NCBI GenBank assembly: GCA_035687365.1
Contig: DASRXU010000226.1
Span: forward strand, 4,911-68,910
Reading direction: 5' to 3'
Source of the DNA: Planctomycetaceae bacterium
Lineage (GTDB): Bacteria > Planctomycetota > Planctomycetia > Planctomycetales > Planctomycetaceae
Length of the DNA stretch: 64,000 nucleotides
Made by a program: the position numbers and the translations under genes. Positions 1,200-31,901 of this stretch are shown here, piece by piece. The notes below the pieces were generated by a model that made no database searches, was not told the DNA's origin, and was given only the letters and a program-made list of their open reading frames with translations. The number at the start of each line of letters is the position of its first letter. The stretch's first letter is position 1.

Positions 1200-1574
1200 T
1201 CATTTGAACTTCGGACGAGCTGTCCCCCACAGGAGGATGGCACCAACCACGAGCAGCCAGAACGGAATCACGCCCAGGCCAGGAATGGCCTCCAAAACAA
1301 GCCCCGGCAAAAGCAGCCACTGCCAGCCAAGCACGGCAAACAGCAGTATGGCCGTGAGCACGTCCGTGGCCCAGACAGCCGGTGGAGCAAACACCACAAA
1401 TCCGCACACCGCGTCCGAGATGGCCGCGATGCCCAGCGCCAGGAGAATCTGTCGCTTTGAGAAACGCAGAGCGCTTCCTCGGCCGGTCTTTGCACTCGAC
1501 ACGTCAGAATTCTCGACACCCGGGGCGGGGAGCTTCGTTCCGTGTTGGCCGTTGTCGGTCAAGGCATCTGACAT
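1200..1574 (-). CDS. Small integral membrane protein, function unknown
   Basis: 124-aa ORF. Hydrophilic N-terminus followed by hydrophobic stretches (ILLALGIAAISDAVCGFVVFAPPAVWATDVLTAILLFAVLGWQWLLLPGLVL...FWLLVVGAILLW). Co-directional with neighbours at short spacing. Confidence 0.5.
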   Translation of the reverse strand: MSDALTDNGQHGTKLPAPGVENSDVSSAKTGRGSALRFSKRQILLALGIAAISDAVCGFVVFAPPAVWATDVLTAILLFAVLGWQWLLLPGLVLEAIPGLGVIPFWLLVVGAILLWGTARPKFK

Positions 1575-1667
1575 GCTCGTCCCGATCCGTTTTGCGATCC
1601 GCCCCTTCCGCCGACCAAATTCCGTATGGTCGGCAGACAGGGGATCGATGCGTCGCTTACTCGTCGA

Positions 1668-2438
1668 CTAGCGCATCCTCCCTCCGAAGCCGCCGCCGAA
1701 ACCACCGCGAAAGCCACCGTCGCCCCCGCGGAATGCCGCAGCGCCGCCACGATCACCTTCGAATCCACCGGCACCGCCGCGAAACGCCGCACCGCCGACG
1801 CCAACGGCTCCGACCGGGTAGCCGACTCCTCCGACTGGTACGCCGTAGGGTTGCTCGGGCACCACCTGTGACACGCCTTCGTCCGACGGAAGTGCGTTGT
1901 AGTAACCCGCAGCCGCCGCGTTGTTAGCCGCGGCACCGTATGCGGCTGCACCGTAGGCTCCAGCTGCGGCGGGATAGGCACCGACCGCGCCGACAGCAGC
2001 GTTCGGGTGGTAAGCACCGGCCGCTCCATAAGCGGCCCCGTTCGGGTGATATTCGCCCGCTGCGCCGTACGCTCCGTTCGGGTGATAGCCACCCGCTTGG
2101 CCGTTGTAACTGCCCTCGTGGCTGCCGCTATAGTTGTTGCCGTTGTAGCTGCCCTGGCGGCTGCCGCTGTAACTGCCTCCGCTGGAACTTCCTTCGTGGC
2201 TGCCGTTGTAATGATTTCCGCTGTAGCTGCCTTCGCGGCTGCCGCTATAACCGCTGCCTCGGTTGTAGCTGCCTTCGTGGCTGCCACTATAGTGGTTGCC
2301 GCTGTAACTCCCTGAGTGACTACCGCTATAGCCGCCACCATTATGCGTGCCTCCAAAGCCGCGAGCGTGGACATCGGTGGGCGAAACAACAGTGAACGTC
2401 AACACGGCCGCAGTGCCGATCAGCAGATTCTTGATCAT
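1668..2438 (-). CDS. Secreted Gly/Ser/Tyr/His/Asn-rich low-complexity protein with C-terminal RGG/FGG tail
   Basis: Signal-peptide-like start MIKNLLIGTAAVLTFTVVSPTDVHA. Then GSHEGSY-type repeats, three YHPN(G/A)A repeats, and the tail FRGGAGGFEGDRGGAAAFRGGDGGFRGGFGGGFGGRMR. The same-strand alternate frame (1559-2389) has no signal peptide. Confidence 0.6.
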   Translation of the reverse strand: MIKNLLIGTAAVLTFTVVSPTDVHARGFGGTHNGGGYSGSHSGSYSGNHYSGSHEGSYNRGSGYSGSREGSYSGNHYNGSHEGSSSGGSYSGSRQGSYNGNNYSGSHEGSYNGQAGGYHPNGAYGAAGEYHPNGAAYGAAGAYHPNAAVGAVGAYPAAAGAYGAAAYGAAANNAAAAGYYNALPSDEGVSQVVPEQPYGVPVGGVGYPVGAVGVGGAAFRGGAGGFEGDRGGAAAFRGGDGGFRGGFGGGFGGRMR

Positions 2439-2532
2439 CGATTTTGTCCCTATGAAGCGTGTGCGAATTGATTCAAAACAATGTGTGCTTGGTGTTCGTC
2501 ATCTCGGGCGGCAACATGCCGCTTGGGAACTG

Positions 2533-3486
2533 TTAGGCGCCGGCTTTCTTGACGCTGCGTTTGAAAATCACTTCCTTTAAATCGGGAAGTCGAACGCCTC
2601 CCAAAGTGCGATCGGTCGATTTCAACGAGAGGGTGTCATCGTCCAACTTTTGGAAAACTTTGACAGCGGTCGTCTTGGTTCCGTCACCGAGCACACCCGA
2701 AGACTGTGACCACCAGCCGTTCGCGATCGGTTTCCATGTGTCCTTGGCGTAACCCGAGTCGGAGGAGAAGTTCCACGAGGTCAGCTGCTTCGTTTCGGGA
2801 TCCCAGCCGATAATCTGCGTCCCCGATGCCGAAGGAAGTCCCGCGGTAGTGACCTGGTAGGTGCGTTCGACAAAGCTCTTGTTCTTCATCCAGCGGCACG
2901 TGGTTTCGATCCGCGTGTCTCCCTCTCCCGCCTGCCAGGTGCCGATCAGCCATTCGAAGTCGTCCAGCTTGTGATAGTTGGACGGGCTGGCAACCTTCAT
3001 GTCGTGGACGGACGATAACATCCACTTCCCCTCGTTCAGCACGTAGATCGCCGTATAACGGCTGGACCCCGGCGCTCCCGCGGGGGGCGGTTGGATCATG
3101 GCGCGGCCATCTTCGACCGCAGTCGACTCGTTGATCACGCGCACCGAGTCGGTGACGCTACTGATCTTGGCTTGCGGATTGGCGGCGAAAAACTCGGCGT
3201 ATTCCTTCTTGATCACGTCGCGGCCCAGATAGCGCTGCCCGTCTTCGTCGATGTATTCGGCGTCGGCAGTCCACAGACCGGCGACTTTGTCGGCGTTGCC
3301 GGTGTTGAAGGCTTGATCGAAGTCGGAGGCCGCCTTGCGGACCGCGAGTTCGGCCGGAGATTGGGATTTGGCAGGAGTCGTTTCCTTAACGGGCGCCGAC
3401 TCTTTGACGGGCTCCGCGGCCCCAACGAGTTCGGCAATGGCAAGAACAAAGGCGATTCGCACGATCATCGACAATGGACGTTTCAT
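2533..3486 (-). CDS. Secreted NTF2-like (SgcJ/EcaC / DUF4440-type) protein with a second C-terminal beta-rich domain
   Basis: Internal start MKRPLSMIVRIAFVLAIAELVGA at 3484-3486 chosen over the 463-aa ORF. Its ATG overlaps the upstream gene's stop as ATGA. Pattern AVRKAASDFDQAFNTGNADKVAGLWTADAEYIDEDGQRYLGRDVI...YVLNEGKWMLSSVH is typical of SnoaL/DUF4440 folds. C-terminal half begins FEWLIGTWQAGEGD. Paralog at 27966-28904. Confidence 0.75.
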   Translation of the reverse strand: MKRPLSMIVRIAFVLAIAELVGAAEPVKESAPVKETTPAKSQSPAELAVRKAASDFDQAFNTGNADKVAGLWTADAEYIDEDGQRYLGRDVIKKEYAEFFAANPQAKISSVTDSVRVINESTAVEDGRAMIQPPPAGAPGSSRYTAIYVLNEGKWMLSSVHDMKVASPSNYHKLDDFEWLIGTWQAGEGDTRIETTCRWMKNKSFVERTYQVTTAGLPSASGTQIIGWDPETKQLTSWNFSSDSGYAKDTWKPIANGWWSQSSGVLGDGTKTTAVKVFQKLDDDTLSLKSTDRTLGGVRLPDLKEVIFKRSVKKAGA

Positions 3487-3887
3487 GATTTGATTTCCAA
3501 GAGAGAGAGTTTCAGAGAACTGTGCCGCAGGCAGGCGACACACCAGACGCCCATCACCGTGTGAAGAATCACAGCCGGCCACAACGCCACGCCGTAGAGG
3601 CCATCTCCGATGGCGGCGTAAACGAGGATGGCGGCGACAGCGACGTCGTAGAGCAACATTGCGGCAATCAATCCGTTTGCCGCTCGGCTTTGCGTGTCGC
3701 CGCGAGCCAGCCAGCAGGCAACACCCAAGGTCAGCAACCCCGCCCCGCAGACGCGACCGGCCGTCAACGCAACGGGTCCCTCCAGCGGCGCACCGACCAG
3801 GAACGCCACCGCTACCGAAGGGTAGCTCAGGAGCGCCAATCCGGCTCCCAGTTCGATCAGCGCGCTGACGATTTGCAGGCTTTTCAT
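3483..3887 (-). CDS. Integral membrane protein (about 4 TM helices), function unknown
   Basis: 134-aa hydrophobic ORF (MKSLQIVSALIELGAGLALLSYPSVAVAFLVGAP...). Its stop overlaps the downstream start (ATGA), implying translational coupling. Confidence 0.6.
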   Translation of the reverse strand: MKSLQIVSALIELGAGLALLSYPSVAVAFLVGAPLEGPVALTAGRVCGAGLLTLGVACWLARGDTQSRAANGLIAAMLLYDVAVAAILVYAAIGDGLYGVALWPAVILHTVMGVWCVACLRHSSLKLSLLEIKS

Positions 3888-3996
3888 GGGGGAAGAACTG
3901 CGCGACAGGACGTAGCAGACACACTAAGGACGCTTTTTCAGCTTAAAATCGATGGGCGGACGGCCCTTGCGAGCCGCCCGCCGGGAATAATCCGAT

Positions 3997-5850
<1,854 letters not shown>

Positions 5851-7228: not shown

Positions 7229-9112
7229 TTAATCGCCGTGGTGGGCCTTGATCACCGCCTCGATCTGCTTCTTGATCGCATCCAGGTTGAACGAAGCCGG
7301 ATCCTGCATCGGCGGATAGTTGATTGCGGTCTGCGCAAGTTTAGCCACCTCTTTCTGGACAAACACAAACCTCCAAAACTCACGCGCGTAGAAGTCATTC
7401 ATGTAGCCCCCGCCGAGATCGTTTAGGCTCTGCTGACCGATCGACGGCGTCCGTTCGAAGGGATCCTGACGGATATTTACGATGGTGGGCATGTCCGTCG
7501 TGACTTTGGGCCCGGGCCAGCCTTGGGGTTGCTGGTAGAACTGGTACTTGAAATCGCCGATCCGGACGGCACCCAGATGCGGGCCGCCAAAATAGAAGAG
7601 TTCTTGACGCTTGGACGGCCCTTTGTCGAGCAGCAAGTCCAACTGGTTGTAGCCGTCGAGGTGGTTCTTGTAGGTCCGATCCCCGAGCTTCACGCCGTTC
7701 AGGAGTTCGTCCGTGATGTTGGGATTGCCCGCAGCGGCAAGCATGGTGGGAAACCAGTCAAGACCGGAAAAAAGTCCGTTTTGAATCGTGCCGGGCTTGA
7801 TCTTGCCCGGCCAGCGGGCGATGCACGGCACGCGGAAGCCGCCTTCCATGACGGTGCCCTTCGTGGCCTTGAACGGCGTCATGCCACCGTCTGGCCAGGT
7901 GAATACCTCGGCCCCGTTGTCAGTGCTGAAGACGACGAGGGTGTTGTCCGCCTCACCGATGTCGTCCAGGTGTTTCATGATGGCGCCGATGGAATCGTCC
8001 ATCTGCTTCATGCCCGCCTCTTCCAGGCCGTAGTTGGTCTGGTAGTTCATCGTCTCCTGGTACTTCGGAGACAAGAACGTGAAGACGTGCATGCGCGTCG
8101 TGTTGTGCCAAATGAAAAATGGTTTGCCATTCTTCTTGGCATCGTCCATGAAGCGATTGGTGTTTTCGACCAACACTTCGTCAAAGGTCTCCATGTCGTG
8201 CTTTGAACCCGGAGGTCCAGCCTGCCAGTGCTGGCGGCCTTCCATGTTCTTGAAGGGACGCAAAGGTCCCTCGTCCACCACACGTTGCTTGCCGACTTTG
8301 CCCCAGCGAGGCATGACTGTGTCGTCGTCAGTGTCGGTCGCCCAGCAATGCACGAGGTTCCGCGGTCCATAGGTCTGGAAGAAAGCCGGGTCCGAGGGGA
8401 ACGAGTACCAGAACGGGTCGGACATGGCGTCGAGGTGGTACAGATAGCCGAAGAATTCGTCGAAGCCATGCAAGGTCGGCAGGAACTTATTCAGGTCACC
8501 TAGGTGGTTCTTGCCGAATTGGCCGGTGACATAGCCCTGCGCTTTCAGGGCCGTGGCGATCGTACAAGCCTTAGCCGGCATTCCGACGTTTGCGCCCGCC
8601 TGCCCCACGGTCGTCAGACCGGTACGGAGAGGAATCTCCCCGGTGATGAAATTGGCGCGACCGGCCGTGCAGCTGGCCTCGGCGTAGTAGTCGGTAAACC
8701 GCATTCCCTCGCGCGCGAGCTTATCGAGATTCGGCGTCTTGCCGGACATGATGCCCTGGTGGTAGGCGCCGATGTTAAACCAACCGACGTCGTCACCCAT
8801 GATGAACAGAATATTTGGCTTTTTGCCTTCGGCCTGCAGGCTAGCGATCTTCGCATTCACCGTACCCATCGCCAGGAGTTGGCTCTTCGCTGAGCCGGTT
8901 GAGCAACAGGCGTGTTCAGTAGGCTTCGAGGCGACACTTGATTCAGTCAATAGCGCAGCGGAAGCACTGCCCATTTTTTCCTTCGCGCTTTGTCGGGACG
9001 GCTCCGCCTTTGCGCTGTGAAATAGGTCAAGCCGGCTCGACGACGCTGCGTAGCCAAGCAGCCCGCCGACCGCCAATACGGCGATCATCTGGGCCCTGGT
9101 GTTTCTGAACAT
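7229..9112 (-). CDS. Sulfatase (S1 family), N-terminal anchor; motif C-T-A-G-R
   Basis: 627 aa. KKPNILFIMGDDVGWFNIGAYH, SCTAGRANFITGEIPLRTGL (Cys codon 8669-8671), GQFGKNHLGD, FSTDNGAE. Confidence 0.9.
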   Translation of the reverse strand: MFRNTRAQMIAVLAVGGLLGYAASSSRLDLFHSAKAEPSRQSAKEKMGSASAALLTESSVASKPTEHACCSTGSAKSQLLAMGTVNAKIASLQAEGKKPNILFIMGDDVGWFNIGAYHQGIMSGKTPNLDKLAREGMRFTDYYAEASCTAGRANFITGEIPLRTGLTTVGQAGANVGMPAKACTIATALKAQGYVTGQFGKNHLGDLNKFLPTLHGFDEFFGYLYHLDAMSDPFWYSFPSDPAFFQTYGPRNLVHCWATDTDDDTVMPRWGKVGKQRVVDEGPLRPFKNMEGRQHWQAGPPGSKHDMETFDEVLVENTNRFMDDAKKNGKPFFIWHNTTRMHVFTFLSPKYQETMNYQTNYGLEEAGMKQMDDSIGAIMKHLDDIGEADNTLVVFSTDNGAEVFTWPDGGMTPFKATKGTVMEGGFRVPCIARWPGKIKPGTIQNGLFSGLDWFPTMLAAAGNPNITDELLNGVKLGDRTYKNHLDGYNQLDLLLDKGPSKRQELFYFGGPHLGAVRIGDFKYQFYQQPQGWPGPKVTTDMPTIVNIRQDPFERTPSIGQQSLNDLGGGYMNDFYAREFWRFVFVQKEVAKLAQTAINYPPMQDPASFNLDAIKKQIEAVIKAHHGD

Positions 9113-9241: not shown

Positions 9242-11182
9242 TCAGTCGCTCGAATGGCTTGCCTGCTGCACCTGCTTCAGAATGCCGTCGAGGTTGTAGG
9301 TTTCCGGCGCCTGGAGCGGCGGAAACTCCTTGTAAGACATGAGGTGCTTGTACCAGAGCTGCTGACCGATCGGCAGCATGTTCCAGTCGTATTGGAATGC
9401 AGTCACGGGGCCGCCCAATGCGCCGCCCATTCCCATGGCCGTCTTCTGGTCGATTCCGACGGCCTGCTCAAACGGGTCCCGTTTGATGTTCTGGACCAGC
9501 GTGAAGTGAAAAGGAACGAGCGGCATGATCCAGCCAGCCGGTCCCGGCTGCGACATGTTGTAATACATCTTCCAGTTCTTGTAGCGGACCGCGGAAGGTG
9601 TGGCACCTGAGAAGTAGAAGAAGTAATCGCGCGCCGACTTTTCCGACCGTCCTTCGAGATAGGCGAGTTGGTTGACGCCGTCGAGCGTCGTTTTGACGAT
9701 GCCCGGATACTGTCCGGCTTCGATCTGCTTCTTCAGCTCGTCGCCCTTCGCGCCACCGGCCGCTTCAACGAGCGTCGGCAGCCAGTCGAGAGCCGCGAAG
9801 AGTTGGTTCTTGACCGTGCCGGGCTTGATGTGGCCCGGCCAGCGAACGACGCAGGGCGCGCGGTAGCCGCCTTCCCAAGCTTCGCCCTTCTGGCCCTTGA
9901 ACGGCGTCACGCCGCCGTCCGGGAAGCTAATCGCTTCGGCACCGTTATCGGTCGTGAAGACGACGATCGTGTTGTCGAGCTGACCCATGTCTTCGAGCTT
10001 CTTGAGGACATAGCCGATGTTGTCATCCATCTGCTTCATGCCGGCTTCGTTGACGCCCCAATCTTTGCCGCCGGGCTCTCCGACCATCGCCATGTACTTG
10101 TCGGACAAGACGGTGGTGACATGCATGCGGGCCGGGTTGTACCAGACGAAGAACGGCTTGTTGGTTTTCTTGGGGTCGTTGCGATCGAGGAAATCAATGA
10201 CGTGGGACGAGATCTCCTCGTCCACAGTCTTCGAGCGTTCGAGCGTCAGCGGGCCTTCGTCTTTGCCCATCTGTTGCGCCGCGGTGCCGTCACCCGATTT
10301 CATCCAAATGATTGGACGTGGGACGGCCATGCAGACGCCATCCTTAGGGTCGATCGCGCCCGGAGGATCCGGAATTCCGGGAATTGGCTCAACCTTCATA
10401 GGCGGCGCGATGCCCTGCACGGTCGGAGTCTTGTTGATGTCTGGGAAGCTCACTTGCTGCATGGCGTCCAGGTGATACAGGTAGCCCCAATATTCCTGGA
10501 AGCCGTGCGCCGTCGGCAGGGACGCCGGATGGTCGCCCAAGTGGTTTTTCCCAAACTCACCGGTGGAGTAGCCTAGGTCCAACAGAAACTTGGCGATGCA
10601 AGGCGTGCCGGGGCGTAAGTAAGACGGGCTGCCGGGCAACTGCGGCGGGATCATGCCGGTGCGCAGTGGATACATGCCCGTGATGAAGGCGTTGCGTCCC
10701 GACGTGCAGCTCTGCATGGCGACATAGTCCATGAAGATTGCACCCTCGTTCGCGATGCGGTCGATGTTCGGTGTTTCGCCAACCATCAGGCCGCGGTGGT
10801 AACAGGCCGGCTGCATCCAGCCGATATCGTCGCCCATGATGAACAGGATGTTGGGCTTTTTGCCTTCGGCTTGAAGGTTGACCAATTTGGCGTCGACGTT
10901 GTTGACCGCGACGAGTTGCCCGCGAGCAGAGCCCGTGGAACAGCAGGTGTGTCCCGCAGTCTTCGACGTTCCGCTGGGCTGCGCGACGGCCTTTTGGATC
11001 GTGAGTGCCATCGGGGTTGAGGACTGGCGAGAAACGCCCGCGTGTTTTTCACTCACCTTTTGTAGAACTGGCTCGGCTTTCGCGCTGTGGAACACGTCCA
11101 TGCGACTCGACGCGGCGACATAGCCGGCCAGTCCACCCATCGCCAATACGGCGATCATCTGGGCTCGAGGACTTCTCAGCAT
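9242..11182 (-). CDS. Sulfatase (S1 family), N-terminal anchor; motif C-T-S-G-R
   Basis: 646 aa. KKPNILFIMGDDIGWMQPACYH, QSCTSGRNAFITGMYPLRTGM (Cys codon 10706-10708), GEFGKNHLGD, FTTDNGAE. Confidence 0.9.
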   Translation of the reverse strand: MLRSPRAQMIAVLAMGGLAGYVAASSRMDVFHSAKAEPVLQKVSEKHAGVSRQSSTPMALTIQKAVAQPSGTSKTAGHTCCSTGSARGQLVAVNNVDAKLVNLQAEGKKPNILFIMGDDIGWMQPACYHRGLMVGETPNIDRIANEGAIFMDYVAMQSCTSGRNAFITGMYPLRTGMIPPQLPGSPSYLRPGTPCIAKFLLDLGYSTGEFGKNHLGDHPASLPTAHGFQEYWGYLYHLDAMQQVSFPDINKTPTVQGIAPPMKVEPIPGIPDPPGAIDPKDGVCMAVPRPIIWMKSGDGTAAQQMGKDEGPLTLERSKTVDEEISSHVIDFLDRNDPKKTNKPFFVWYNPARMHVTTVLSDKYMAMVGEPGGKDWGVNEAGMKQMDDNIGYVLKKLEDMGQLDNTIVVFTTDNGAEAISFPDGGVTPFKGQKGEAWEGGYRAPCVVRWPGHIKPGTVKNQLFAALDWLPTLVEAAGGAKGDELKKQIEAGQYPGIVKTTLDGVNQLAYLEGRSEKSARDYFFYFSGATPSAVRYKNWKMYYNMSQPGPAGWIMPLVPFHFTLVQNIKRDPFEQAVGIDQKTAMGMGGALGGPVTAFQYDWNMLPIGQQLWYKHLMSYKEFPPLQAPETYNLDGILKQVQQASHSSD

Positions 11183-19768: not shown

Positions 19769-22700
19769 ATGGGAAATTCCACACCCCCCGAGCCCCAAGA
19801 CTCATTCATTCTGGATTCAGGGGCCACGCCGCCGGATCCCGCCGCCCGCTCGTCGGCAAGCGATCAGGATGCGCTACTGACATTCATCGCGGGCTCGGAA
19901 ATCCCCGTAACGAGTGTGCCTGCGGCCGTCCCTCCCGCTTTCGGACGGTACACGGTGCAGCGGGCCCTCGGCGCGGGGAGTTTCGGGACAGTGTATCTCG
20001 GTCACGACGCGCAGCTCGACCGCCCGGTCGCCATCAAAGTGCTGCGCAGCGGCCCGAACGTCCCGCGCGAAGAAGCCGATCGCCTGATGCAGGAGGCCCG
20101 GAAGCTCGCCCGACTGCACCACCCGGGCATCGTGACGGTTCACGATGTCGGGACGCAAGACGGTCAAGTCTTCATCGTCTCGAATTATCTCGACGGGCAG
20201 AACCTTGCTGATCGGCTGAAGCAGAACCCGCCGAACTGGCCGGAGGCCGCTCGAATTGCCGCGTGCGTCGCCGAAGCGCTGGCTCACGCGCATGCCCATT
20301 TCACGATTCACCGTGACGTCAAACCGGCCAACATTATCATGACATCGGCTGGCCAGCCCGTGCTGGTCGATTTCGGACTGGCGTTGGATGACTCGTCGGC
20401 CGGCGGTCGCGAGTTGGGAATCGTCTCGGGAACGCCGTCCTACATGGCGCCCGAGCAAGTCGCCGGTGCGGCCCACCGCATCGACGGGCGAACCGACGTC
20501 TACAGTCTGGGCGTAGTGCTCTACCAGATGCTTTGCGGGCGCGTTCCCTTCCGTGCCAGCACGACGCGTGAACTTCTGCGCCAGGTCCGCGACGACGAGC
20601 CGCAACCGCTCCGCCAGGTCGTTCTCAACCTTCCACCCGAGTTGGAACGCATCTGCTTCAAGGCTCTCGCGAAAAAGATCCAAGATCGCTACGGCACCGC
20701 GTCAGATTTCGCCGAAGACTTGCGGCGGGCGATCCAAGCGGCTTCCGACTCGACTGGGTCTTCCTTCGTTCGGCACTCGATCGTGCTCGAGCCCGACGCT
20801 CCGGCATCCAGTTCAATGTCGACGGGCTCGGTTCCCTCGGGGGCCACCGTGTCGGGTTTGTCCTCGGCCGCCCATTCACTTGCAAACGCTCCACCGCTCG
20901 CCTCATCGCGGTCGTCCTCGATACAGTCTTCCGCGAACTTCTCCTCGTCGCGCCGTCGCATTCGTGAGGCCGAGCGTCGCCAGGTGACCGTGCTGATCTG
21001 TGGCACCGACTTGTTCGAATCCGAGGCGTATCTGGAGAATCTAGAAGCGGAGGACCAGGCGAAGGTGCTGGGCGCCTTTCAGCAAGCCTGCACGGCCGCC
21101 GTGCGCCCGTTCGATGGAACTGTGGTGCAGTGCAACGAGCAAGGGCTATTGGCGTGTTTCGGCTTTCCGGTCGCGTACGAGGACAGCGCTCGCCGAGCCG
21201 CGCGAGCCGGTCTCAATCTCCTGACCGCAATGGACGAATTGGGCAAGGATTTCCAACACAAGCACCAGCTCGAACTAAGTCCGTGGGTCGGACTTCACAC
21301 CGGGCCGGCGTTGGTCGAAGAAAAAGAAGACGCCTTTTCGCTCGTAGGTGAGGCGCGGAATGTTGCACTCAAACTTGCCGAGAGTGCCGAGCCGGGACAG
21401 CTGATTTGCACCGAGGCCACGCATCGCCTGATCTGGTTCCGTTTTCAATGCGCGAGTCTCGGTCGCCGCAAGATCAAAGGCGTGCCGGAACCGGTCGAAC
21501 TATTCGAAGTGCAGGGCCTAAGTCTCAACCGAACTTCGTTGGATGCGGCCGGTCCGACGGGCCTCACGCCGTTGACCGGTCGCGATCATGAGACCGCCTT
21601 GCTCCAGGATCGCTGGGATCAGGCGAAGGAAGGGATGGGCCAAGTCGTGCTGCTCCCCGGCGAAGCCGGCGTGGGGAAGTCACGCCTGGTCTACACGCTG
21701 GAGCAGTATGTCGAGTCGCAGAGTGCCGAAGGCGAATCGCCGGCCGGGTCGGTTGCTGCCGCCGAGGCCGAAGCGACGCCAGGGGCGACCGTGATCAAAT
21801 GGCGGTGCTCGCCTCACTTTCAGAACACGGGACTCTATCCGGCGATCGAGTTTTTCAAGCAAGCGTTGGCGCTGCGTCCCGACGAGGCACCCAGCGCGCA
21901 GCTCGATCGATTGATCGACTATCTCCGTCAGCACGATCTCGCTCGACCCGACACCGTCCCGTTGTTTGCTTCACTGCTCTCGCTGCCCGCCGACGAGCGG
22001 TTTCCCCCGTTGGGACTGTCGCCCGTGCGAGAGCGGGAGGAAATGTTTCAAGCCCTGGCCGATTGGCTGAGCGCAGCGGCGAGCCGGCAGCCGGTGCTGT
22101 TCGTCATCGAAGATCTGCATTGGGTCGACGCTTCGACCAAAGAGTTTCTCACCAAGTTTTTGGCCGAAGGATTGCACGAGCGAATTCTGGCTCTGCTCAC
22201 CTTCCGTCCCGAGTTTCAGCCCCCGTGGCCGTCGGTCGGTTCGCAGCATACAACGCTGACCTTGAACCGTCTCAATCGCCGCCAGGTGGCCGAGTTCATG
22301 GCGAAGAAATTAAAGAGCGCGGCGCCGGAGAAGCTGGTCGACCAGATTTACGATCGAACCGGCGGCGTGCCCCTCTTCGTGGAAGAATTCACGAAGATGG
22401 TGCAGGAGTCGGGCGCGTTGAAAGGGACCAAAGCCGGGGGGACACCGATTGCCGCTCTGCCTGCGCACGAGATCCCTTCGACGCTGCAAGATCTGATCAT
22501 GGCGCGCCTCGATCGGCTCGAGGGCGATCGCGAGATCGCCCAGCTGGCCGCGACAATCGGTCGCGAATTCAGCTACGAACTGCTGGCCGCTGTCGTGACT
22601 CTCGACGAGCCGACCCTTCAGGCGGAACTGACGAAGCTGGTGCAGGCGGAAATTCTGTTTCAGAAGGGACGTCTGCCGAAGTGCAGTTACGCGTTCAAGC

Positions 22701-24236: not shown

Positions 24237-24545
24237 CTACTTCCGTTCGGGAAGGTGCACCTCCCGAACGGTTTTGTTGTTCCCCGCCACCACCAACTCC
24301 AGCGCCGCACCGGGCTTCAGGCGATCGTCCTTGATGCCCGCATCGCTAAGGCCTCCCTTGGGACCGAGAAACTTCGTCTTGGAATCGACCTTGTATTCCT
24401 TCTTGTCTTCCCCGTCTTTGACGAACAGCATTTTCTTTTTGACGTCAACCTTGATCAACGTCACGCTGTAGGTCTTGTCGGCGGCCAACACGGCGCTGGC
24501 GATGAACAAGAACGCAAGGACAGCGGCGACAGGGCGGCGTAACAT
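24237..24545 (-). CDS. Small secreted protein, one copy of an uncharacterised ~75-aa beta-type domain
   Basis: Signal peptide MLRRPVAAVLAFLFIASAVLA. The domain TLIKVDVKKKMLFVKDGEDKKEYKVDSKTKFLGPKGGLSDAGIKDDRLKPGAALELVV is homologous to both halves of 24613-25455. Confidence 0.65.
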   Translation of the reverse strand: MLRRPVAAVLAFLFIASAVLAADKTYSVTLIKVDVKKKMLFVKDGEDKKEYKVDSKTKFLGPKGGLSDAGIKDDRLKPGAALELVVAGNNKTVREVHLPERK

Positions 24546-24612: not shown

Positions 24613-25455
24613 TTAGGCGGCTTTCTTGACTCGGCGGCTCACTGCCGTGTTCACCTTCACTTCTTTGACTTTGCGACCGCCTACTTCGGTGATGACCGTC
24701 AGCGGCGCGCCGGCTTGAAGGGCGGGGTCGCTCAAACCTTTCCGGCTCACCCGACTATTGACCAGGATTTTCACGTCGTTCGACAACAGGAACGAGCGAT
24801 CTTTGCCGTTAACGAGCGAAATGACCAGCATCCGCCTGGCCGGGTCAAAGCTCTTCACCTTGCCGGGGAATTCGCTGTCTTCGTCCTCTTCTTCGTCTTT
24901 GGCGGCGTCCTTGCCAGCCGTCCGCTTAGAGTCAGTCGTGCCACGAAACCGCGATGTGCGCGTGGTGGTCGCCGGCGTGGTGGGAGTCGAGGACGGTGCC
25001 GGGCTGGTCGACGGAGTCGTGGTCTCGGAATCGTTCGTGTTGGGCGTGCTGCTCGGCGACTTCGAGGAACCGGAAACTCGCGTCCTGGGCGATCCGGCCG
25101 TCGCTTTCATTTCGCGGGCCTTGCGATCGTAGCCGAGATGAAGTTCGGCCGCCGTGGTGCCGTTGGCCACGACCGTGATCGGAAGGCCGCTGTGGAATCG
25201 GTGGTCCTTGAGCCGACTGTGCACCACTCCGCCGCGCGGACCGACGATCACCGTCTCTTCATTGATGGAATAGGTGCGTTCACGATTGTTGCTGTCAGCA
25301 ATGGTCACCGTCCCCTTGGCGACGTCGACCGTCACGACCTTTCCCGTAACCCCGTCTTTGACTTCGGAATCCTTGGCTTCCGCGCGGGGAGCACAGAGCC
25401 CGAACAATCCGATCGCCAAACTGCATAACACGGCAACTGTCGGCTTACGTAACAT
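24613..25455 (-). CDS. Secreted protein with two copies of the same ~75-aa domain separated by a Ser/Thr/Pro-rich and acidic linker
   Basis: Signal peptide MLRKPTVAVLCSLAIGLFGLCAPRAEA. Domain 1: GKVVTVDVAKGTVTIADSNNRERTYSINEETVIVGPRGGVVHSRLKDHRFHSGLPITVV. Linker: SSKSPSSTPNTNDSETTTPSTSPAPSSTPTTPATTT...DEEEDED. Domain 2: GKVKSFDPARRMLVISLVNGKDRSFLLSNDVKILV...LQAGAPLTVI. Confidence 0.7.
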   Translation of the reverse strand: MLRKPTVAVLCSLAIGLFGLCAPRAEAKDSEVKDGVTGKVVTVDVAKGTVTIADSNNRERTYSINEETVIVGPRGGVVHSRLKDHRFHSGLPITVVANGTTAAELHLGYDRKAREMKATAGSPRTRVSGSSKSPSSTPNTNDSETTTPSTSPAPSSTPTTPATTTRTSRFRGTTDSKRTAGKDAAKDEEEDEDSEFPGKVKSFDPARRMLVISLVNGKDRSFLLSNDVKILVNSRVSRKGLSDPALQAGAPLTVITEVGGRKVKEVKVNTAVSRRVKKAA

Positions 25456-25545: not shown

Positions 25546-25923
25546 TCAAGTTTCGTTAGCGGTCGCGGGTAACTTGCCGTCTGGCGTCAGGCGGTCGACG
25601 ATTTTCGGCAGGATTTCCGCCAGGTGCGATCGCAGGACCTCCGGAGAGATGCCAACATGCGCAGCGAGCTGTTGAATCTGCTCCGAACCGAGGGCTTTTT
25701 CGAGCTGCTCCGGAGAAACCGCCTGGTTGGCCCCCGTGCCAATCCACGATTGGACCGCTTGCCCCAACCCTTTTGATTCGAGTTGTTGCAAGATGGCCGT
25801 CAATCCGCCGCCGTCGTTGGTCTGAAACTTCTTGACGACGGCATTGGCAAGCTTGGCCTGAGTAGAGTCAGGATTGCCGAATCCGGTGACAACCATTTCG
25901 GCCAGCGTGGTAAACAAACCCAT
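25546..25923 (-). CDS. YidB-like (DUF937) protein
   Basis: Internal start MGLFTTLAEMV (ATG 25921-25923) chosen because the longer ORF overlaps the upstream gene. GGGLTAILQQLESKGLGQAVQSWIGTGANQAVSPEQLEKALGSEQIQQLAAHVGISPEVLRSHLAEILPKIVDRLTPDGKLP matches the YidB pattern. Confidence 0.75.
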   Translation of the reverse strand: MGLFTTLAEMVVTGFGNPDSTQAKLANAVVKKFQTNDGGGLTAILQQLESKGLGQAVQSWIGTGANQAVSPEQLEKALGSEQIQQLAAHVGISPEVLRSHLAEILPKIVDRLTPDGKLPATANET

Positions 25924-26015
25924 GACAAACTCCTCGGCCCAAGGTTTTTCGATCAGAATCCGATTTGCGGCGGACGTTCGCACTGCCCTTCGCAGGGACA
26001 CGACTGTAAGTGACA

Positions 26016-27935
26016 CTACGGAGCCGGCGGCGGATCCGAAGAGGCCTGTTCTCCTGCCGGAGGCGTGAACGCCGCGATCAATTGCGGTGCGAGCTTGTCT
26101 TGCGGCACAAGCTTCTCGAACTTCTGAAGCTCCTTCATGGCGCTCGGAATGTGGTTCAGGACGAGGTAGTGATAGGCCAACAAGAACAGGCCATCGCTCG
26201 ATTTCGGGTGGGCCCGCACGTATTCCTCCAGCACGCGAAGTTGCCGCGTATACGTTTCCGGATCGGCATAAAGCTCGCGCAACGTCTCCCAGGTCCAACC
26301 CGGCCCCGCAGACAAAACGGCATAGGCTCCAGCCGCTGCATCGCGATACTTGCCCTGGGCGAACAGCACCAACGAACGGAATTCGTGGAGCATGGGATCG
26401 TTGGGTTGAAGCTTGATCGCCTGGTCGACTTCGCTCAGCGCTTTCGCGTAATCGTTCGATTTGAAGGCCCCGCGCGCCGCTTCGAAGATTTGAGCATCTT
26501 GCGACGGCAGTTCGTTGGCCGCTTCGGGCGGCTGACCGGCGTCGGCGACTGCGGGCGCGACCGAATTATCGTTGGGAATATCGCTGGGCGGGTACGCGTC
26601 GTATCCCGCGACCGCGCCGTTGTCCGAGTAGGTCGGAGCGACCTCTTGAGACGGCATGACAATCGGCTGCGAGTAGTCGATGTAGTTGTAGCTCGTATCG
26701 ACTGGCGCGGCGCCGACAACCACCGGCTGCGGAGCGACGTAGAACGGATTGTTGTAGACGTACGAGTCACCCGGCGACGCGAGCCAGCCCGAGGCCACAC
26801 TCGCGCCGTACCAGGCGGCCGGCGCGTGGTACCAGTTGTTCCACGAACCGTGGTTCCAGTTGCCGTAGCGACCCGACCAGTTGTTGTTCCAGTTGCCGCT
26901 GCCATTCCAATTGCCGCGACCGTTCCAATTTCCTTGGCCGTTCCAGTTGTGGTTGTTGACGACGTTGTTCGTGTTGTTGTTGACGTTGATATCGCCGCGG
27001 TTGCCACTGTTGATATTGCCGGTGTTGATGTTGGTGCGATTGCCGATATTGGTGCGGTCGCCGATGTTCGTCCGATCGCCGACGTTGGGGCGATTGACGT
27101 ACTCGGGTCGAGGCAAGCGTCCGTTTCCTCCCTGCCCCGGACGATTGGGCCAGTTCGGGCGGTTGCCGGCATTCGGCCATCGTTCTCCACTCCCGCCCTG
27201 CCCTGGACGATCGGGACGATTTCCTGCGTTGGGCCAACGCTCGCCGCTGCCTCCCTGACCCGGTCGCGATGGCTGGCCAGGCCGAGTGCCAGCTCCAGGC
27301 CACCGTTCACCTGTGCCCCCTTGCCCGGGACGAGTCGGACCCTCGGGTCGATTTCCCGCTCCGGGCCAGCGTTCTCCACTGCCACCCTGTCCCGGTCGAT
27401 TCGGTTGATTCGGACGGTTACCGATGCCCGCCCATTGTTCGCCGCCACCACCCGCGCCCGGACGATTTCCCATTACTGGTCGTTGACCGGGTTGGTTGCC
27501 GGCACCCGGACGTTGAACGTTACCCGGCACGCGATCACCGCCCGGTCGCTGTCCAGCACCGGGCCGCACTCCGGCACCTGGTCGATTCGCGCCGCCAAAA
27601 TCAGGGCGACCGGCGAAATGGTTGCCGCCGGCTTGCGGACCGCGATTGGCCATCCCACCGCCCGCGCCGCCGTGCGGAACCATGCCCGCTCCGCCGCCCC
27701 GATTAGCCGGTCGCGCCGGAGCCCCGCCGCCACCGCCAAATGACGGCGTTCGATGCATGGCTTCACCACCGCCGCCACGCGGCGCGCCACCACCGCCTCC
27801 TCGGCTGCCGCCTGCAAAACCGGCGCGACCACCGCCACCACCCGCACGTCCGCCGCGTTCACCGATTCCGAATCCCGGTTGCTGCAAGAGACCCAGGATG
27901 CACACGGCAACCAGAGTCAGTTGGATTTTTTTCAT
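26016..27935 (-). CDS. Secreted protein: RGG/Gly-Arg-Pro-rich repeats, Asn/Trp-rich repeats, C-terminal TPR-like domain
   Basis: 639 aa. Signal peptide MKKIQLTLVAVCILGLLQQPGFG. GERGGRAGGGGGRAGFAGGSRGGGGGAPRGGGGE. Four near-identical RPGQGG(S/T)GERWP(G/N)AG(N/T)RP units. DRTNIG and GNWNG repeats. C-terminal helical region FKSNDYAKALSEVDQAIKLQPNDPMLHEFRSLVLFAQGKYRDAA... Confidence 0.7.
   Translation of the reverse strand: MKKIQLTLVAVCILGLLQQPGFGIGERGGRAGGGGGRAGFAGGSRGGGGGAPRGGGGEAMHRTPSFGGGGGAPARPANRGGGAGMVPHGGAGGGMANRGPQAGGNHFAGRPDFGGANRPGAGVRPGAGQRPGGDRVPGNVQRPGAGNQPGQRPVMGNRPGAGGGGEQWAGIGNRPNQPNRPGQGGSGERWPGAGNRPEGPTRPGQGGTGERWPGAGTRPGQPSRPGQGGSGERWPNAGNRPDRPGQGGSGERWPNAGNRPNWPNRPGQGGNGRLPRPEYVNRPNVGDRTNIGDRTNIGNRTNINTGNINSGNRGDINVNNNTNNVVNNHNWNGQGNWNGRGNWNGSGNWNNNWSGRYGNWNHGSWNNWYHAPAAWYGASVASGWLASPGDSYVYNNPFYVAPQPVVVGAAPVDTSYNYIDYSQPIVMPSQEVAPTYSDNGAVAGYDAYPPSDIPNDNSVAPAVADAGQPPEAANELPSQDAQIFEAARGAFKSNDYAKALSEVDQAIKLQPNDPMLHEFRSLVLFAQGKYRDAAAGAYAVLSAGPGWTWETLRELYADPETYTRQLRVLEEYVRAHPKSSDGLFLLAYHYLVLNHIPSAMKELQKFEKLVPQDKLAPQLIAAFTPPAGEQASSDPPPAP
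27111..27443 (-). repeat. In-frame tandem coding repeats (~19-22 codons, 4 full copies + 1 partial) inside 26016-27935
   Basis: Protein residues ~165-275 contain RPGQGGSGERWPGAGNRP, RPGQGGTGERWPGAGTRP, RPGQGGSGERWPNAGNRP (twice), and RPGQGGNGRLPRP. Confidence 0.85.
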
Positions 27936-27965: not shown

Positions 27966-28904
27966 CTACCGTGTCTCGGCTGCGGCCGTTTGATCGGGCG
28001 CTCCGCGCCGGAATGTGACGAGGGAATCAGCCAAAGGTTGACTATCGATCGAGCGATCGAGGGCTTGCCATTTGAAATGATTGTCGTCGACGAACGACCA
28101 GACTTGCCGCGCCGAGGCCGTGCGCGCGTCGGGCAGCACGCCCGTCACGGCGACCTCCCACTTGTTGCCGTCGCGCTCCCAGGTGCCGTCGCTGAAGCCA
28201 CCCTTCGAGTCGAAGATCCAACTGCGAATCTGATTGTTCGCCGGATCCCAACCGATCCGCTGGGTGATCGCGAGCGGTTCCTGGTTGGGCCGTTTGATCG
28301 TGTACTCCTGAATCAGGTAACTCTTGCCCGGTCCCCAGTGGCACGTCATCTGAATGTCGGCCTCCTTGTTCTCGTCCTCCCAGCGTCCGACCAGCCATTC
28401 GAGCTGTTTCAGCCGCGTATAAGGAGTGGGCTCGACCGTTTCGGCGACCGGTGCAACGTCTTGCACGCGGGTCATTTGCCACTTGCCGTCGGACTTGACG
28501 AGCACGGCCGAAAACCGCGTTTTGTCGGTTGTTCCATCGGGTGCCGAAATCGTGACCGTGCCGTCCTCGAGAGCGACGTCGGACTTGAGCACGCGCACCG
28601 ATTGGACATCGACTTTGAGCGAATAGCCTTTCGTGGCCACGCGCCCCTTCTTGAACAGTTCGACGATCGCGTCGCGACCTTTGGTAGCCTTGCCTTCGTC
28701 ATTGATGTACTCGGCGTCGGCGGACCAGTGCTTGCCGGCTTCGTCGAACTTCTGCTTGTTGTAGGCGTCCGCATACTGGGCCACGCCTTTGCGGATTGCG
28801 GCTTCCTCATCCGAAGCGGGTTTTGCATTTTGAGCGAGGGCTGCGCCGGCAAAGCAAAGGCCCATGAGGCCTGCCAGGCCAAGAACCGGTACGCGGGTTC
28901 GCAT
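27966..28904 (-). CDS. Secreted NTF2-like (SgcJ/EcaC / DUF4440-type) protein with second C-terminal domain; paralog of 2533-3486
   Basis: Signal peptide MRTRVPVLGLAGLMGLCFAGAALA. AIRKGVAQYADAYNKQKFDEAGKHWSADAEYINDEGKATKGRDAI...VLVKSDGKWQMTRV. C-terminal half LEWLVGRWEDENKE...RIGWDPANNQIRSWIFDSKGGFSDGTWERDGNKW is colinear with the 2533-3486 product. Confidence 0.8.
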   Translation of the reverse strand: MRTRVPVLGLAGLMGLCFAGAALAQNAKPASDEEAAIRKGVAQYADAYNKQKFDEAGKHWSADAEYINDEGKATKGRDAIVELFKKGRVATKGYSLKVDVQSVRVLKSDVALEDGTVTISAPDGTTDKTRFSAVLVKSDGKWQMTRVQDVAPVAETVEPTPYTRLKQLEWLVGRWEDENKEADIQMTCHWGPGKSYLIQEYTIKRPNQEPLAITQRIGWDPANNQIRSWIFDSKGGFSDGTWERDGNKWEVAVTGVLPDARTASARQVWSFVDDNHFKWQALDRSIDSQPLADSLVTFRRGAPDQTAAAETR

Positions 28905-31583: not shown

Positions 31584-31901
31584 GCTTCTCTTACGCTCAC
31601 AGCGGCGACGGCTCACTCGACGCGATGGGTCGTCAGTCGCCGCGCCAATTGCCGAAATCATCGGGGCAAAAGGCATCGCGGCCGTGGATTGCAATTCAGC
31701 CCGGCGCGCGGGACAGTAACCCGCGCTTTCCCCTCTTGCCGCTAAGTCAGCGGGCCGGCTGATCTGCTGTTCAAACCGCCACTGCCACTGCCGCGTGGCG
31801 GGTGTTTCGACGCTCTACATCAGGACGACGCGGATCCCTTCCAAAGATCCGTAGTTCAGACAACGTTGACCTTCCAGACTTTCCTGACGGAGAACTCAGA
31901 C

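What the first reader, a model, noticed from the sequence alone, without database searches (positions are those of the whole stretch)
1668..3887. Locus A of a recurring pair: secreted NTF2-like protein directly upstream of a secreted RGG/FGG Gly-rich low-complexity protein
Gene order on the minus strand is: 4-TM protein (3887-3483), ATGA overlap, NTF2-like SgcJ/EcaC-type protein (3486-2533), a 94-nt gap, then the G/S/Y-rich protein ending in FRGGAGGFEGDRGGAAAFRGGDGGFRGGFGGGFGGRMR (2438-1668). The same adjacency recurs at 27966-28904 / 26016-27935, with a paralogous NTF2-like gene and a 30-nt gap. There the low-complexity partner begins GFGIGERGGRAGGGGGRAGFAGGSRGGGGG. Two independent occurrences in 64 kb argue for a functional couple. 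NTF2-fold proteins are textbook binders of FG-repeat or RGG-type disordered partners in eukaryotes (NTF2 with FG nucleoporins; the G3BP NTF2-like domain). That analogy is purely speculative here, but it gives a testable idea: the NTF2-like protein may be a chaperone, receptor or modifier of an extracytoplasmic gel- or condensate-forming protein. I know of no described bacterial system of this kind.
Basis: partly seen in the sequence, partly recalled or inferred. Interest (0 to 1): 0.75.

Follow-up and report, generated by a model that had tools for sequence, protein, structure and literature searches.

The report
Conserved secreted NTF2–glycine-rich gene pair
Planctomycete bacteria almost always place a gene for an exported NTF2-fold protein directly in front of a gene for an exported, glycine-rich disordered protein; this pairing has not been described and its function is unknown.

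Summary
I extended it well beyond this window.

- **The NTF2-like proteins.** The two are paralogs (32% identity).
- **The adjacency.** In 77 of 77 assessable related loci, spread across Planctomycetota, the next gene on the same strand (median gap 61 nt) encodes a signal peptide followed by RG(F)GG and a Gly-rich low-complexity region. Starting from the other side, 4 of 4 glyB homologs (59-37% identity) have the NTF2-like gene directly upstream.
- **Partner classes.** There are three. The canonical class has an FGG/RGG disordered region plus a conserved new C-terminal domain, and NCBI mislabels it "protocadherin". The glyA type is low complexity only. The glyB type ends in a TPR domain. Class tracks the NTF2 phylogeny.
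- **Translation.** Both low-complexity ORFs are under purifying selection (dN/dS 0.08-0.23).
- **Neighbours.** Co-oriented sulfatase genes are frequent.
- **Databases and literature.** No Pfam or NCBIfam family, PDB relative or paper covers the pair.

The functional coupling is strongly supported. The idea that the NTF2 domain binds the FG/RGG region is untested. My best guess is a cognate binder or escort for a matrix-forming protein of the cell envelope.

The parts
3955..3982 (-). Terminator-like hairpin (12-bp stem, 10 GC pairs, T tail) between the upstream sulfatase gene and the 4-TM gene. It probably marks the 5' boundary of the locus A transcription unit.
   Evidence: No terminator-like site lies between ntfA and glyA.
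3483..3887 (-). 134-aa membrane protein with about four hydrophobic segments. Its stop overlaps the ntfA start (ATGA). It is a lineage-specific accessory of glyA-type loci.
   Evidence: No Pfam or NCBIfam family. Homologs occur only in L003, L006, L007, L008 and L009, at varying positions.
2533..3486 (-). ntfA, 317 aa: signal peptide, Pro/Lys/Glu-rich linker, NTF2-like cone (about residues 44-165; SgcJ/EcaC, DUF4440), then a helix plus about 10 beta-strands forming a Trp-rich barrel (residues 171-312; conserved motif SGTQIIGWDP).
   Evidence: 116 homolog clusters found. 1,671 representatives at E <= 1e-30.
2439..2532 (-). 94-nt intergenic spacer between ntfA and glyA.
   Evidence: The median spacer in 69 related loci is 61 nt.
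1668..2438 (-). glyA, 256 aa: signal peptide ending ..TDVHA|RGFGG, YSGSHEGSY(S/N)GNHY repeats, GYHPNGAYGAAG repeats, an LPSDEG remnant motif and a C-terminal FRGG/FGGG tail. It has no folded domain.
   Evidence: Orthologs in L003, L006, L007 and L061 are 65-87% identical, with dN/dS 0.08-0.20 at dS about 0.7-3.5.
1200..1574 (-). 124-aa membrane protein directly downstream of glyA. It may belong to the same unit in close relatives only.
   Evidence: Homologs lie downstream in L061 and L007. No Pfam family.
3997..5850 (-). 617-aa sulfatase (PF00884) co-oriented directly upstream of locus A. It is one example of a recurrent neighbour of the pair.
   Evidence: Sulfatase ORFs lie within 6 kb in 31 of 80 loci, co-oriented in 28 of those 31.
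27966..28904 (-). ntfB, 312 aa: paralog of ntfA with the same two-domain layout (DUF4440/SnoaL plus DUF1579).
26016..27935 (-). glyB, 639 aa: signal peptide, Gly/Arg-rich start, RPGQGGSGERWP repeats, Asn-rich and Trp-rich segments, then a C-terminal TPR domain (about residues 480-620).
   Evidence: The 635-aa ortholog P0237 supports the full ORF, and the low-complexity part has dN/dS 0.23. Public gene calls split this ORF wrongly.
25546..25980 (-). YidB-like protein downstream of glyB. It is kept only in the closest ortholog locus and is not part of the conserved core.

Best explanation
Both loci are copies of a two-gene cassette found across Planctomycetota. Both products are exported by the Sec pathway.

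- Gene 1 encodes a two-domain soluble protein: an NTF2-like cone plus a Trp-rich beta-barrel.
- Gene 2 encodes a protein whose mature N-terminus is RG(F)GG, followed by 100-350 residues of Gly-rich, aromatic- or Arg-containing disordered sequence. What follows that region varies by class: a new beta-rich domain, a TPR domain, or nothing.

Shown: conserved order, strand and short spacing; co-diversification of the two genes; purifying selection on the low-complexity ORFs; the fold of gene 1.

Inferred: the two genes are co-transcribed, and the two proteins act on each other outside the cytoplasm. I consider it most likely that the NTF2/barrel protein is the cognate binder of the disordered protein. 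It would escort, cap or anchor it, and so control where and when the cohesive FGG/RGG/YSG region assembles into a matrix, coat or fibre of the cell envelope.

Speculative: because co-oriented sulfatase genes are frequent neighbours, this matrix may take part in capturing or handling anionic sulfated glycans.
For: 1. The partner is present in 77 of 77 assessable loci among 80 from GTDB species-representative genomes (Planctomycetaceae, Pirellulaceae, Thermoguttaceae, Adhaeretor, Anatilimnocola, Bremerella, Fuerstiella and others). It is on the same strand, with a median gap of 61 nt.
2. The reciprocal test holds. Four of 4 glyB homologs at 59, 47, 39 and 37% identity have a roughly 300-aa NTF2-like gene directly upstream, while other neighbours differ. 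Three of 4 far-edge NTF2 members (26-38% identity) also keep such a partner.
3. Partner class follows the NTF2 tree. The glyA-type NTF2 proteins form a single clade nested among canonical ones (apart from the frameshifted L009 copy), and the TPR-type ones group together.
4. The junction motif L-P-L-A-D-[CAV]-W-[GA]|R-G-[FGR]-G-G is conserved beyond what a generic signal peptide needs.
5. In the glyA clade the partner is reduced to a signal peptide plus low complexity. The pair is still kept, and glyA has dN/dS 0.08-0.20. The disordered region is therefore itself the selected partner.
6. The canonical disordered region is about 140 aa, about 50% Gly, 9% Phe, 7-8% Arg and under 3% acidic, with about 12 FG/GF dipeptides. 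AlphaFold gives it pLDDT about 30.
7. The NTF2-like domain has no invariant polar catalytic set. Its invariant residues are Gly, Ala, Trp and a GR motif, and the barrel is Trp-rich.
8. One possible in-frame fusion of gene 1 with a canonical partner exists (P0437).
9. No terminator-like site lies between ntfA and glyA.
Against: - There is no direct evidence of binding, localisation, expression or assembly.
- Signal peptides were judged by eye and from alignment, not with a dedicated predictor.
- Many NTF2-like proteins of the SnoaL/SgcJ type are enzymes or small-molecule binders, so an enzymatic role is not excluded.
- The single fusion protein lacks the Gly-rich region and sits on one 2.5-kb short-read contig. 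It may be an assembly collapse. If it is real, it points to the folded part of the partner rather than to the disordered region.
- glyA is Tyr/His/Ser-rich and glyB is Arg/Pro/Asn/Trp-rich, not FG-rich. If the NTF2 protein reads the low-complexity region, it must tolerate very different chemistries.
- The sulfatase association is modest (31 of 80 loci), and these genomes are sulfatase-rich anyway.
Confidence: 0.45

Rival explanations
1. Enzyme and substrate. The NTF2-like/barrel protein is an enzyme, as the NCBI name 'SgcJ/EcaC family oxidoreductase' suggests. It would covalently modify or cross-link the Gly-rich protein, for example at Tyr, His or Arg, or process its N-terminus, maturing it into an insoluble envelope material.
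For: - The N-domain belongs to TIGR02246. Its closest structures include SgcJ, SgcE6, limonene epoxide hydrolase and ketosteroid-isomerase-like proteins.
- The mature N-terminus RG(F)GG and the -4 Asp / -2 Trp positions are strikingly conserved, as would suit a recognition site.
- glyA is rich in Tyr and His, residues often used for oxidative cross-links.
Against: - No invariant Asp/His/Tyr/Glu set typical of catalytic NTF2-like enzymes appears in 50 aligned sequences. The invariant positions are Gly, Ala and Trp.
- SgcJ itself has no demonstrated activity (my own knowledge).
- The three partner classes differ greatly in chemistry.
Confidence: 0.2
2. Spacer model. The Gly-rich region is only a long flexible tether that holds the C-terminal module (new beta domain or TPR) away from the membrane or wall. 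The NTF2/barrel protein binds that folded module or a shared ligand such as a glycan, not the low-complexity region.
For: - 65 of 85 classified loci have a conserved, confidently folded C-terminal domain (pLDDT 75-92).
- TPR domains are protein-binding modules.
- The P0437 fusion keeps the folded part and drops the Gly-rich part.
- The Trp-rich barrel, together with neighbouring sulfatases, could indicate glycan binding.
Against: - glyA-type partners (9 loci, including this window) have no folded domain at all. They are nevertheless kept next to the NTF2 gene under strong purifying selection.
- The only feature shared by all three partner classes is the N-terminal RG(F)GG and the Gly-rich region.
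Confidence: 0.2
3. Sulfated-glycan capture module. The mildly cationic RGG/FGG region binds anionic sulfated polysaccharides at the cell surface or in the periplasm. The NTF2/barrel protein hands the substrate on to the neighbouring sulfatases.
For: - Sulfatase ORFs lie within 6 kb in 31 of 80 loci. They are co-oriented in 28 of those 31 and often directly adjacent. The same is seen in L086/L087 and L090.
- Locus A is flanked by sulfatases.
- The canonical disordered region has a positive net charge and few acidic residues.
Against: - Most loci (49 of 80) have no sulfatase nearby.
- Planctomycete genomes carry very many sulfatases, and the background density was not measured here.
- The mature glyA protein has a net charge of about -1.
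Confidence: 0.1
4. Chance or artefact. The low-complexity ORFs are untranslated by-products of GC-rich repetitive DNA, and the adjacency is coincidental.
For: - Public gene callers split glyB and chose another frame for its 5' part.
- Long antisense and off-frame ORFs overlap both genes.
Against: - The reading frame, the signal peptide and the motifs are conserved across orthologs. dN/dS is 0.08-0.23 while dS is about 0.7-1.5.
- The adjacency is found in 77 of 77 assessable loci.
Confidence: 0.01

Closest known systems
SgcJ/EcaC family (TIGR02246; DUF4440/SnoaL-like NTF2 superfamily), e.g. SgcJ 4OVM and SgcE6 4I4K
   Same: The N-terminal domains of ntfA and ntfB score above the family cutoff. 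The model superposes on SgcJ and SgcE6 with TM 0.82-0.88.
   Different: - The known members are cytoplasmic, single-domain proteins of enediyne gene clusters with no established activity (my own knowledge).
- The proteins here carry a signal peptide and a second Trp-rich barrel.
- They are always paired with a secreted Gly-rich protein.
Eukaryotic NTF2 with FxFG nucleoporins, and the G3BP NTF2-like domain with FGDF motifs
   Same: An NTF2-fold protein is genetically tied to a disordered protein rich in Phe-Gly and Arg-Gly. The canonical disordered region is about 50% Gly and 9% Phe, with about 12 FG/GF dipeptides.
   Different: - There is no sequence relationship beyond the superfamily. PF02136 scores 14.5 bits against a cutoff of 21.
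- The location is extracytoplasmic.
- Binding has not been tested.
- glyA and glyB are not FG-rich.
Curli (CsgA with CsgC/CsgE/CsgF) and Fap functional-amyloid operons
   Same: An operon couples a secreted, aggregation-prone, low-complexity structural protein with a small periplasmic accessory protein that could control its assembly.
   Different: - No CsgG- or FapF-like channel gene, nor any other conserved third gene, is present.
- The sequences are unrelated.
- The partner is Gly-rich and predicted to be disordered, not a Q/N-rich beta-solenoid repeat.
PEX13 YG domain with PEX5 (nuclear-pore-like phase of peroxisomes; PMC9795577, abstract seen)
   Same: A Tyr/Gly-rich disordered domain outside the nucleus forms a selective phase that a receptor engages. 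glyA is 29% Gly and 10% Tyr.
   Different: The PEX13 system is eukaryotic and membrane-anchored, and its receptor does not have an NTF2 fold. This is an analogy only.
Proteins that NCBI names 'protocadherin' in Planctomycetota (e.g. Stieleria, Rosistilla, Roseiconus; ETAA8_19670 of Anatilimnocola aggregata)
   Same: These are the canonical partner class, found downstream of ntfA-like genes in 65 loci.
   Different: - The name is not supported. The three tested proteins have no cadherin or any other Pfam domain at E <= 1.
- glyA and glyB lack the canonical C-terminal region.

Membership tests
SgcJ/EcaC NTF2-like family (TIGR02246) | Score above the curated NCBIfam cutoff | tested here: met
   ntfA scores 60.6 bits and ntfB 51.1 bits against a cutoff of 33.95. 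DUF4440 scores 48.3 and 51.6 against 25.2.
SgcJ/EcaC NTF2-like family (TIGR02246) | Alpha+beta cone fold of the NTF2 superfamily | tested here: met
   The AlphaFold model has pLDDT 87.8, and residues 44-165 form three helices plus a curved sheet. Foldseek matches 4ovm, 4i4k and 3hx8 with target TM 0.82-0.88.
SgcJ/EcaC NTF2-like family (TIGR02246) | Oxidoreductase or other catalytic activity, as implied by the family name | not testable with these tools
   No invariant polar catalytic residues appear in the 50-sequence alignment. Activity requires biochemistry.
DUF1579 (PF07617) | Score above the Pfam gathering threshold in the C-terminal domain | tested here: inconclusive
   ntfB scores 29.5 bits against 25.2 (met). 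ntfA has no hit at E <= 0.1. The two C-domains align with each other over their full length.
Eukaryotic NTF2 / G3BP-type FG-motif receptors | Membership of the NTF2 domain family PF02136 | tested here: not met
   ntfA scores 14.5 bits against a cutoff of 21. ntfB has no hit.
Eukaryotic NTF2 / G3BP-type FG-motif receptors | Direct binding of Phe-Gly motifs in a hydrophobic surface groove | not testable with these tools
   No complex prediction or model coordinates were available. This needs a multimer model or a binding assay.
Eukaryotic NTF2 / G3BP-type FG-motif receptors | A partner that carries FG repeats in a charge-poor disordered region | tested here: inconclusive
   Met for canonical partners (median 12 FG/GF dipeptides in about 140 aa). 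Weak for glyA (5) and glyB (3).
Curli / Fap functional-amyloid systems | A dedicated outer-membrane secretion channel gene (CsgG or FapF) in the operon | tested here: not met
   Clustering all ORFs in the 80 loci finds no third gene family conserved with the pair, other than sulfatases in 31 loci.
Cadherin / protocadherin (the NCBI product name of the canonical partners) | Cadherin repeat domains | tested here: not met
   Three canonical partners have no Pfam family at E <= 1. One canonical partner, glyA and glyB were also scanned against NCBIfam and none matched a cadherin family.
TPR repeat proteins | TPR motifs above the Pfam threshold in glyB | tested here: met
   TPR_2 scores 30.1 against 27 and TPR_14 28.3 against 23.5, at residues 485-545. 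TPR_9 lies at 552-618 but is below its cutoff. The region is strongly conserved in 10 homologs.
Polymorphic toxin systems with NTF2-like immunity proteins | A toxin domain in the neighbouring protein and a cytoplasmic immunity protein | tested here: not met
   The partners show no toxin, Rhs or other Pfam domain. The NTF2-like proteins carry N-terminal signal peptides.

The most novel reading that the evidence does not exclude
Planctomycetes build an extracytoplasmic phase or meshwork from FGG/RGG/YG-type disordered proteins, and a dedicated NTF2-fold protein reads it. This would be a bacterial analog, by convergence, of the NTF2-FG-nucleoporin or PEX5-PEX13 principle. It might gate or organise macromolecule traffic, for example the uptake of sulfated polysaccharides, through the unusually large planctomycete periplasm.
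Probability: 0.1. Interest if true: 0.95.

Novelty: categorically new. Interest (0 to 1): 0.72.

Why it matters
- **Scale.** The cassette is large and apparently confined to one phylum. The NTF2/barrel protein alone has 1,671 representatives at 50% identity. At least 892 canonical-partner clusters and at least 472 TPR-type partner clusters were found.
- **Copy number.** It is often present in several copies per genome.
- **Annotation gap.** It is unannotated or misannotated: "protocadherin", "hypothetical", or ORFs split by gene callers.
- **Rarity of the type.** Secreted disordered proteins of the FG/RGG type are almost unknown in bacteria.
- **Experimental entry point.** A strictly conserved, genetically linked NTF2-fold partner offers a direct route into how such proteins are handled outside the cytoplasm, and possibly into planctomycete envelope biology and the use of sulfated glycans.
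- **Minimal outcome.** Even the least ambitious result, a new envelope protein pair, would assign a context to thousands of hypothetical proteins.

Tried and rejected
- **Locus search with the 17-sequence alignment A1.** This failed for lack of a conserved 7-10 column stretch. The narrower alignment A2 worked.
- **BLASTP of glyA against glyB.** No alignment, so they are not paralogs in the usual sense.
- **HMM of the canonical partner's last 300 aa against all window reading frames.** No hit. Neither glyA nor glyB contains that domain, and the window holds no canonical partner.
- **Pfam and NCBIfam on glyA and on canonical partners.** Nothing.
- **Profile search of PDB sequences with the barrel domain of gene 1 and with the C-domain of the canonical partner.** Only chance-level hits: RsfG at E = 0.6 and CadC at E = 0.96.
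- **hhalign between those two beta domains.** Probability 0.1%, so they are unrelated.
- **Foldseek on the canonical partner model.** Only OspA-like single-layer sheets at very low TM, and weak lipocalin hits (probability 0.8, TM 0.36). I make no fold assignment.
- **Apparent fusions P0461 and L076.** These are frameshift run-ons, not fusions.
- **Literature.** Seven searches found nothing on the pair: protocadherin with Rhodopirellula or Pirellula, Mu-protocadherin, DUF1579, planctomycete with glycine-rich, NTF2 or periplasm, and Gemmata with FG repeat. The Gemmata pore paper mentions neither FG repeats nor NTF2.
- **Toxin-immunity reading.** Rejected; see the membership test.
- **Promoter scan.** No sigma-70-like sites in either locus, which is uninformative for this phylum.
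Full report
**1. Observation**

The window has 60.5% G+C. Exact protein matches lie on soil and sediment metagenome contigs, and the closest genomes are Planctomycetaceae MAGs. All ORFs named in the finding exist on the minus strand:

- a 134-aa protein with about four hydrophobic segments (3483-3887);
- ntfA (2533-3486, 317 aa);
- glyA (1668-2438, 256 aa);
- ntfB (27966-28904, 312 aa);
- glyB (26016-27935, 639 aa).

The ATGA overlap at 3486-3483 and the 94-nt and 30-nt spacers are as described. ntfA and ntfB are 32% identical over 276 residues (E = 4e-50), and no third copy lies in the window. glyA is 27% Gly and glyB 18% Gly. The two cannot be aligned with each other.

**2. What the genes encode**

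*The NTF2-like proteins.* Both match DUF4440/SnoaL models and TIGR02246, the "SgcJ/EcaC family oxidoreductase" (60.6 and 51.1 bits against a cutoff of 33.95). ntfB also matches DUF1579 in its C-terminal half.

An AlphaFold2 model of ntfA, built on a 50-sequence alignment, has mean pLDDT 87.8. It shows:

- a disordered N-terminus (residues 1-28, the signal peptide and linker);
- an NTF2 cone (residues 44-165);
- after one helix, about ten antiparallel strands (residues 182-310).

Foldseek places the cone next to SgcJ, SgcE6 and ketosteroid-isomerase-like proteins, with target TM 0.82-0.88. The second domain has no sequence relative in the PDB. It carries most of the family's invariant residues, many of them Trp, including the motif SGTQIIGWDP.

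*glyA.* This protein is a signal peptide followed only by low-complexity sequence: YSGSHEGSY/GNHY repeats, GYHPNGAYGAAG repeats and an FRGG/FGGG tail.

*glyB.* This protein has a Gly/Arg-rich start, RPGQGGSGERWP repeats, Asn-rich and Trp-rich stretches, and a well-conserved C-terminal TPR domain.

**3. Are the low-complexity ORFs real genes?**

Yes.

- glyA orthologs in four other genomes (65-87% identity) keep the frame. Their dN/dS is 0.08-0.20, with dS about 0.7-1.5 in most pairs.
- glyB has a 635-aa ortholog called as one gene (P0237). Against it, the low-complexity part alone has dN/dS 0.23.
- Public gene calls that split glyB into a wrong-frame 129-aa ORF plus a 366-aa piece are artefacts.

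**4. Is the adjacency conserved?**

A scan of one genome per GTDB species gave 318 confirmed relatives of ntfA. The 80 best were fetched with flanks, and all are Planctomycetota.

- Three loci end within 200 nt of the NTF2 gene and cannot be judged.
- In all 77 others, the next gene on the same strand encodes a hydrophobic signal sequence followed by RG(F/G/R)GG and a Gly-rich stretch. I inspected the six loci my pattern missed, and each has the partner.
- The median spacer is 61 nt.
- Starting from the partner side, 4 of 4 glyB homologs at 59, 47, 39 and 37% identity have a roughly 300-aa NTF2-like gene directly upstream, in otherwise different neighbourhoods.
- Among four of the most distant NTF2 relatives (26-38% identity), three keep such a partner. 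One has a different secreted low-complexity protein.

The family is large:

- 1,671 representatives at 50% identity with E <= 1e-30 for gene 1;
- at least 892 clusters of the commonest partner;
- at least 472 clusters of the glyB type.

Several MAGs carry two or more cassettes, as this window does.

**5. Partner classes**

*Canonical (65 loci).*

- Signal peptide.
- About 140 aa of disordered sequence: about 50% Gly, 9% Phe, 7-8% Arg, under 3% acidic.
- The motif LNSFLGLPSDEG.
- GPxGG hairpin repeats.
- A Trp-rich stretch, then YDYGxNVxYQD.
- A C-terminal domain ending ETGLYNLTKDEAPxLIHFG..TEQWLLVRL.

AlphaFold gives pLDDT about 30 for the Gly-rich part and 75-92 for the last 170 residues. No convincing structural or sequence relative was found. 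NCBI names these proteins "protocadherin", which nothing here supports.

*glyA type (9 loci, including this window).* Low complexity only, with an LPSDEG remnant. The corresponding NTF2 proteins form a single clade nested among canonical ones, apart from the frameshifted L009 copy. This class therefore looks like a derived truncation.

*TPR type (glyB, L083-L090).* Some members carry an extra C-terminal domain.

An HMM of the canonical C-terminal 300 aa finds nothing in the window. The features shared by all three classes are:

- the position of the gene;
- the signal peptide with its conserved junction L-P-L-A-D-[CAV]-W-[GA]|R-G-[FGR]-G-G;
- the Gly-rich region.

**6. Neighbourhood**

No third gene is conserved with the pair.

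- The 4-TM gene of locus A occurs only in the closest glyA-type loci, at varying positions.
- A strong terminator-like hairpin (3982-3955) lies upstream of the 4-TM gene. None lies between ntfA and glyA.
- Sulfatase genes are a recurrent neighbour. They lie within 6 kb in 31 of 80 loci, are co-oriented with the pair in 28 of those 31, and are often directly adjacent. They also appear next to TPR-type pairs.
- The window itself is sulfatase-dense. I did not measure background density, so this link is only suggestive.

**7. Mechanism**

Shown: a strictly conserved, closely spaced, co-oriented pair of exported proteins that co-diversify.

Inferred: co-transcription, and a direct functional interaction outside the cytoplasm.

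I favour (0.45) a model in which the NTF2/barrel protein is the cognate binder, escort or anchor of a cohesive disordered protein that builds part of the envelope matrix. Three observations support it:

- The glyA clade shows that the low-complexity region alone is enough to keep the pair together under purifying selection.
- Gene 1 shows no conserved catalytic residue set.
- One candidate in-frame fusion of the two proteins exists (P0437). It sits on a single short contig, and it lacks the Gly-rich part.

The rivals are an enzyme-substrate relation (0.2), a spacer model in which the folded C-terminal module is what matters (0.2), and a sulfated-glycan capture role (0.1). Chance or artefact is excluded.

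**8. Comparison with known systems**

- The N-domain is a member of the SgcJ/EcaC NTF2-like family.
- The proteins are not members of the eukaryotic NTF2 family (PF02136 is below threshold).
- The pair lacks the channel genes of curli and Fap systems.
- It has no toxin domains.
- The "protocadherin" label fails.

The analogy with NTF2-FG nucleoporins, G3BP-FGDF or PEX5-PEX13 YG domains is attractive for the canonical FG/RGG-rich partners, but it is untested. Seven literature searches found no description of the pair.

**9. Verdict**

The reading as a functional couple is supported. The reading as an FG-binding NTF2 protein remains a hypothesis. As a system, the pair matches nothing described.

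Noticed in passing
window 26016-27935 (-); L001 5086-6932: Public gene calls split glyB into a 129-aa ORF in the wrong frame and a 366-aa C-terminal piece. The Gly-rich N-terminal half is therefore missing from protein databases for this and probably many similar genes.
   Followed up: yes
window 3997-5850, 7229-9112, 9242-11182 (all -), 31866-33836 (+), 34011-35453 (+): Four full-length PF00884 sulfatase genes and a DUF1254/DUF1214 protein lie within 35 kb. A further sulfatase and a second DUF1254/DUF1214 protein lie just beyond the window start, according to the matching contig.
   Followed up: partly
L088 113-2320 (P0437, Logan SRR22387974): A 735-aa protein in which an NTF2/barrel protein is fused in frame to a canonical partner lacking its signal peptide and Gly-rich region. 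It is either a genuine Rosetta-stone fusion or an assembly collapse across the repeat.
   Followed up: partly
window 24237-24545, 24613-25455, 25546-25980 (all -): Three genes lie downstream of locus B: a YidB-like protein, a 280-aa secreted Ser/Thr/Pro-rich protein, and a 102-aa relative of that protein's N-terminal part. The same trio follows the 59%-identical ortholog locus L083, but not more distant loci.
   Followed up: partly
window 35551-36807 (-): A 418-aa ORF matches the AIM3/BBC1 cysteine-proteinase-fold domain (PF25459, E = 3.6e-17). By its name this looks like a eukaryote-derived Pfam family.
   Followed up: no
window 19769-24181 (+): A 1470-aa Ser/Thr kinase with AAA_16, TPR and guanylate-cyclase-like hits, convergent with the locus B gene string. 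It is also present in L001.
   Followed up: no
L091 3007-3741: At the far edge of the NTF2 family (P0113, 30% identity), the downstream gene is a 244-aa secreted Gln/Ala-rich protein that looks coiled-coil-like, instead of a Gly-rich one. This is the only exception seen.
   Followed up: partly
L085, L089, L090 (C-terminal about 100 aa of the TPR-type partners): Some TPR-type partners carry an extra C-terminal domain (pattern GxW.A...DGS.F.L.L..D..F.WKF ... DPGL.F.R). JGI annotates some glyB homologs as TIGR03066 family, which may correspond to this domain. glyB itself lacks it.
   Followed up: no
window 26010-27743 (+), 1559-2389 (-), 1940-2395 (+): Long ORFs on the opposite strand or in other frames overlap glyA and glyB. 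They are by-products of GC-rich, repetitive coding sequence and could mislead gene callers.
   Followed up: partly
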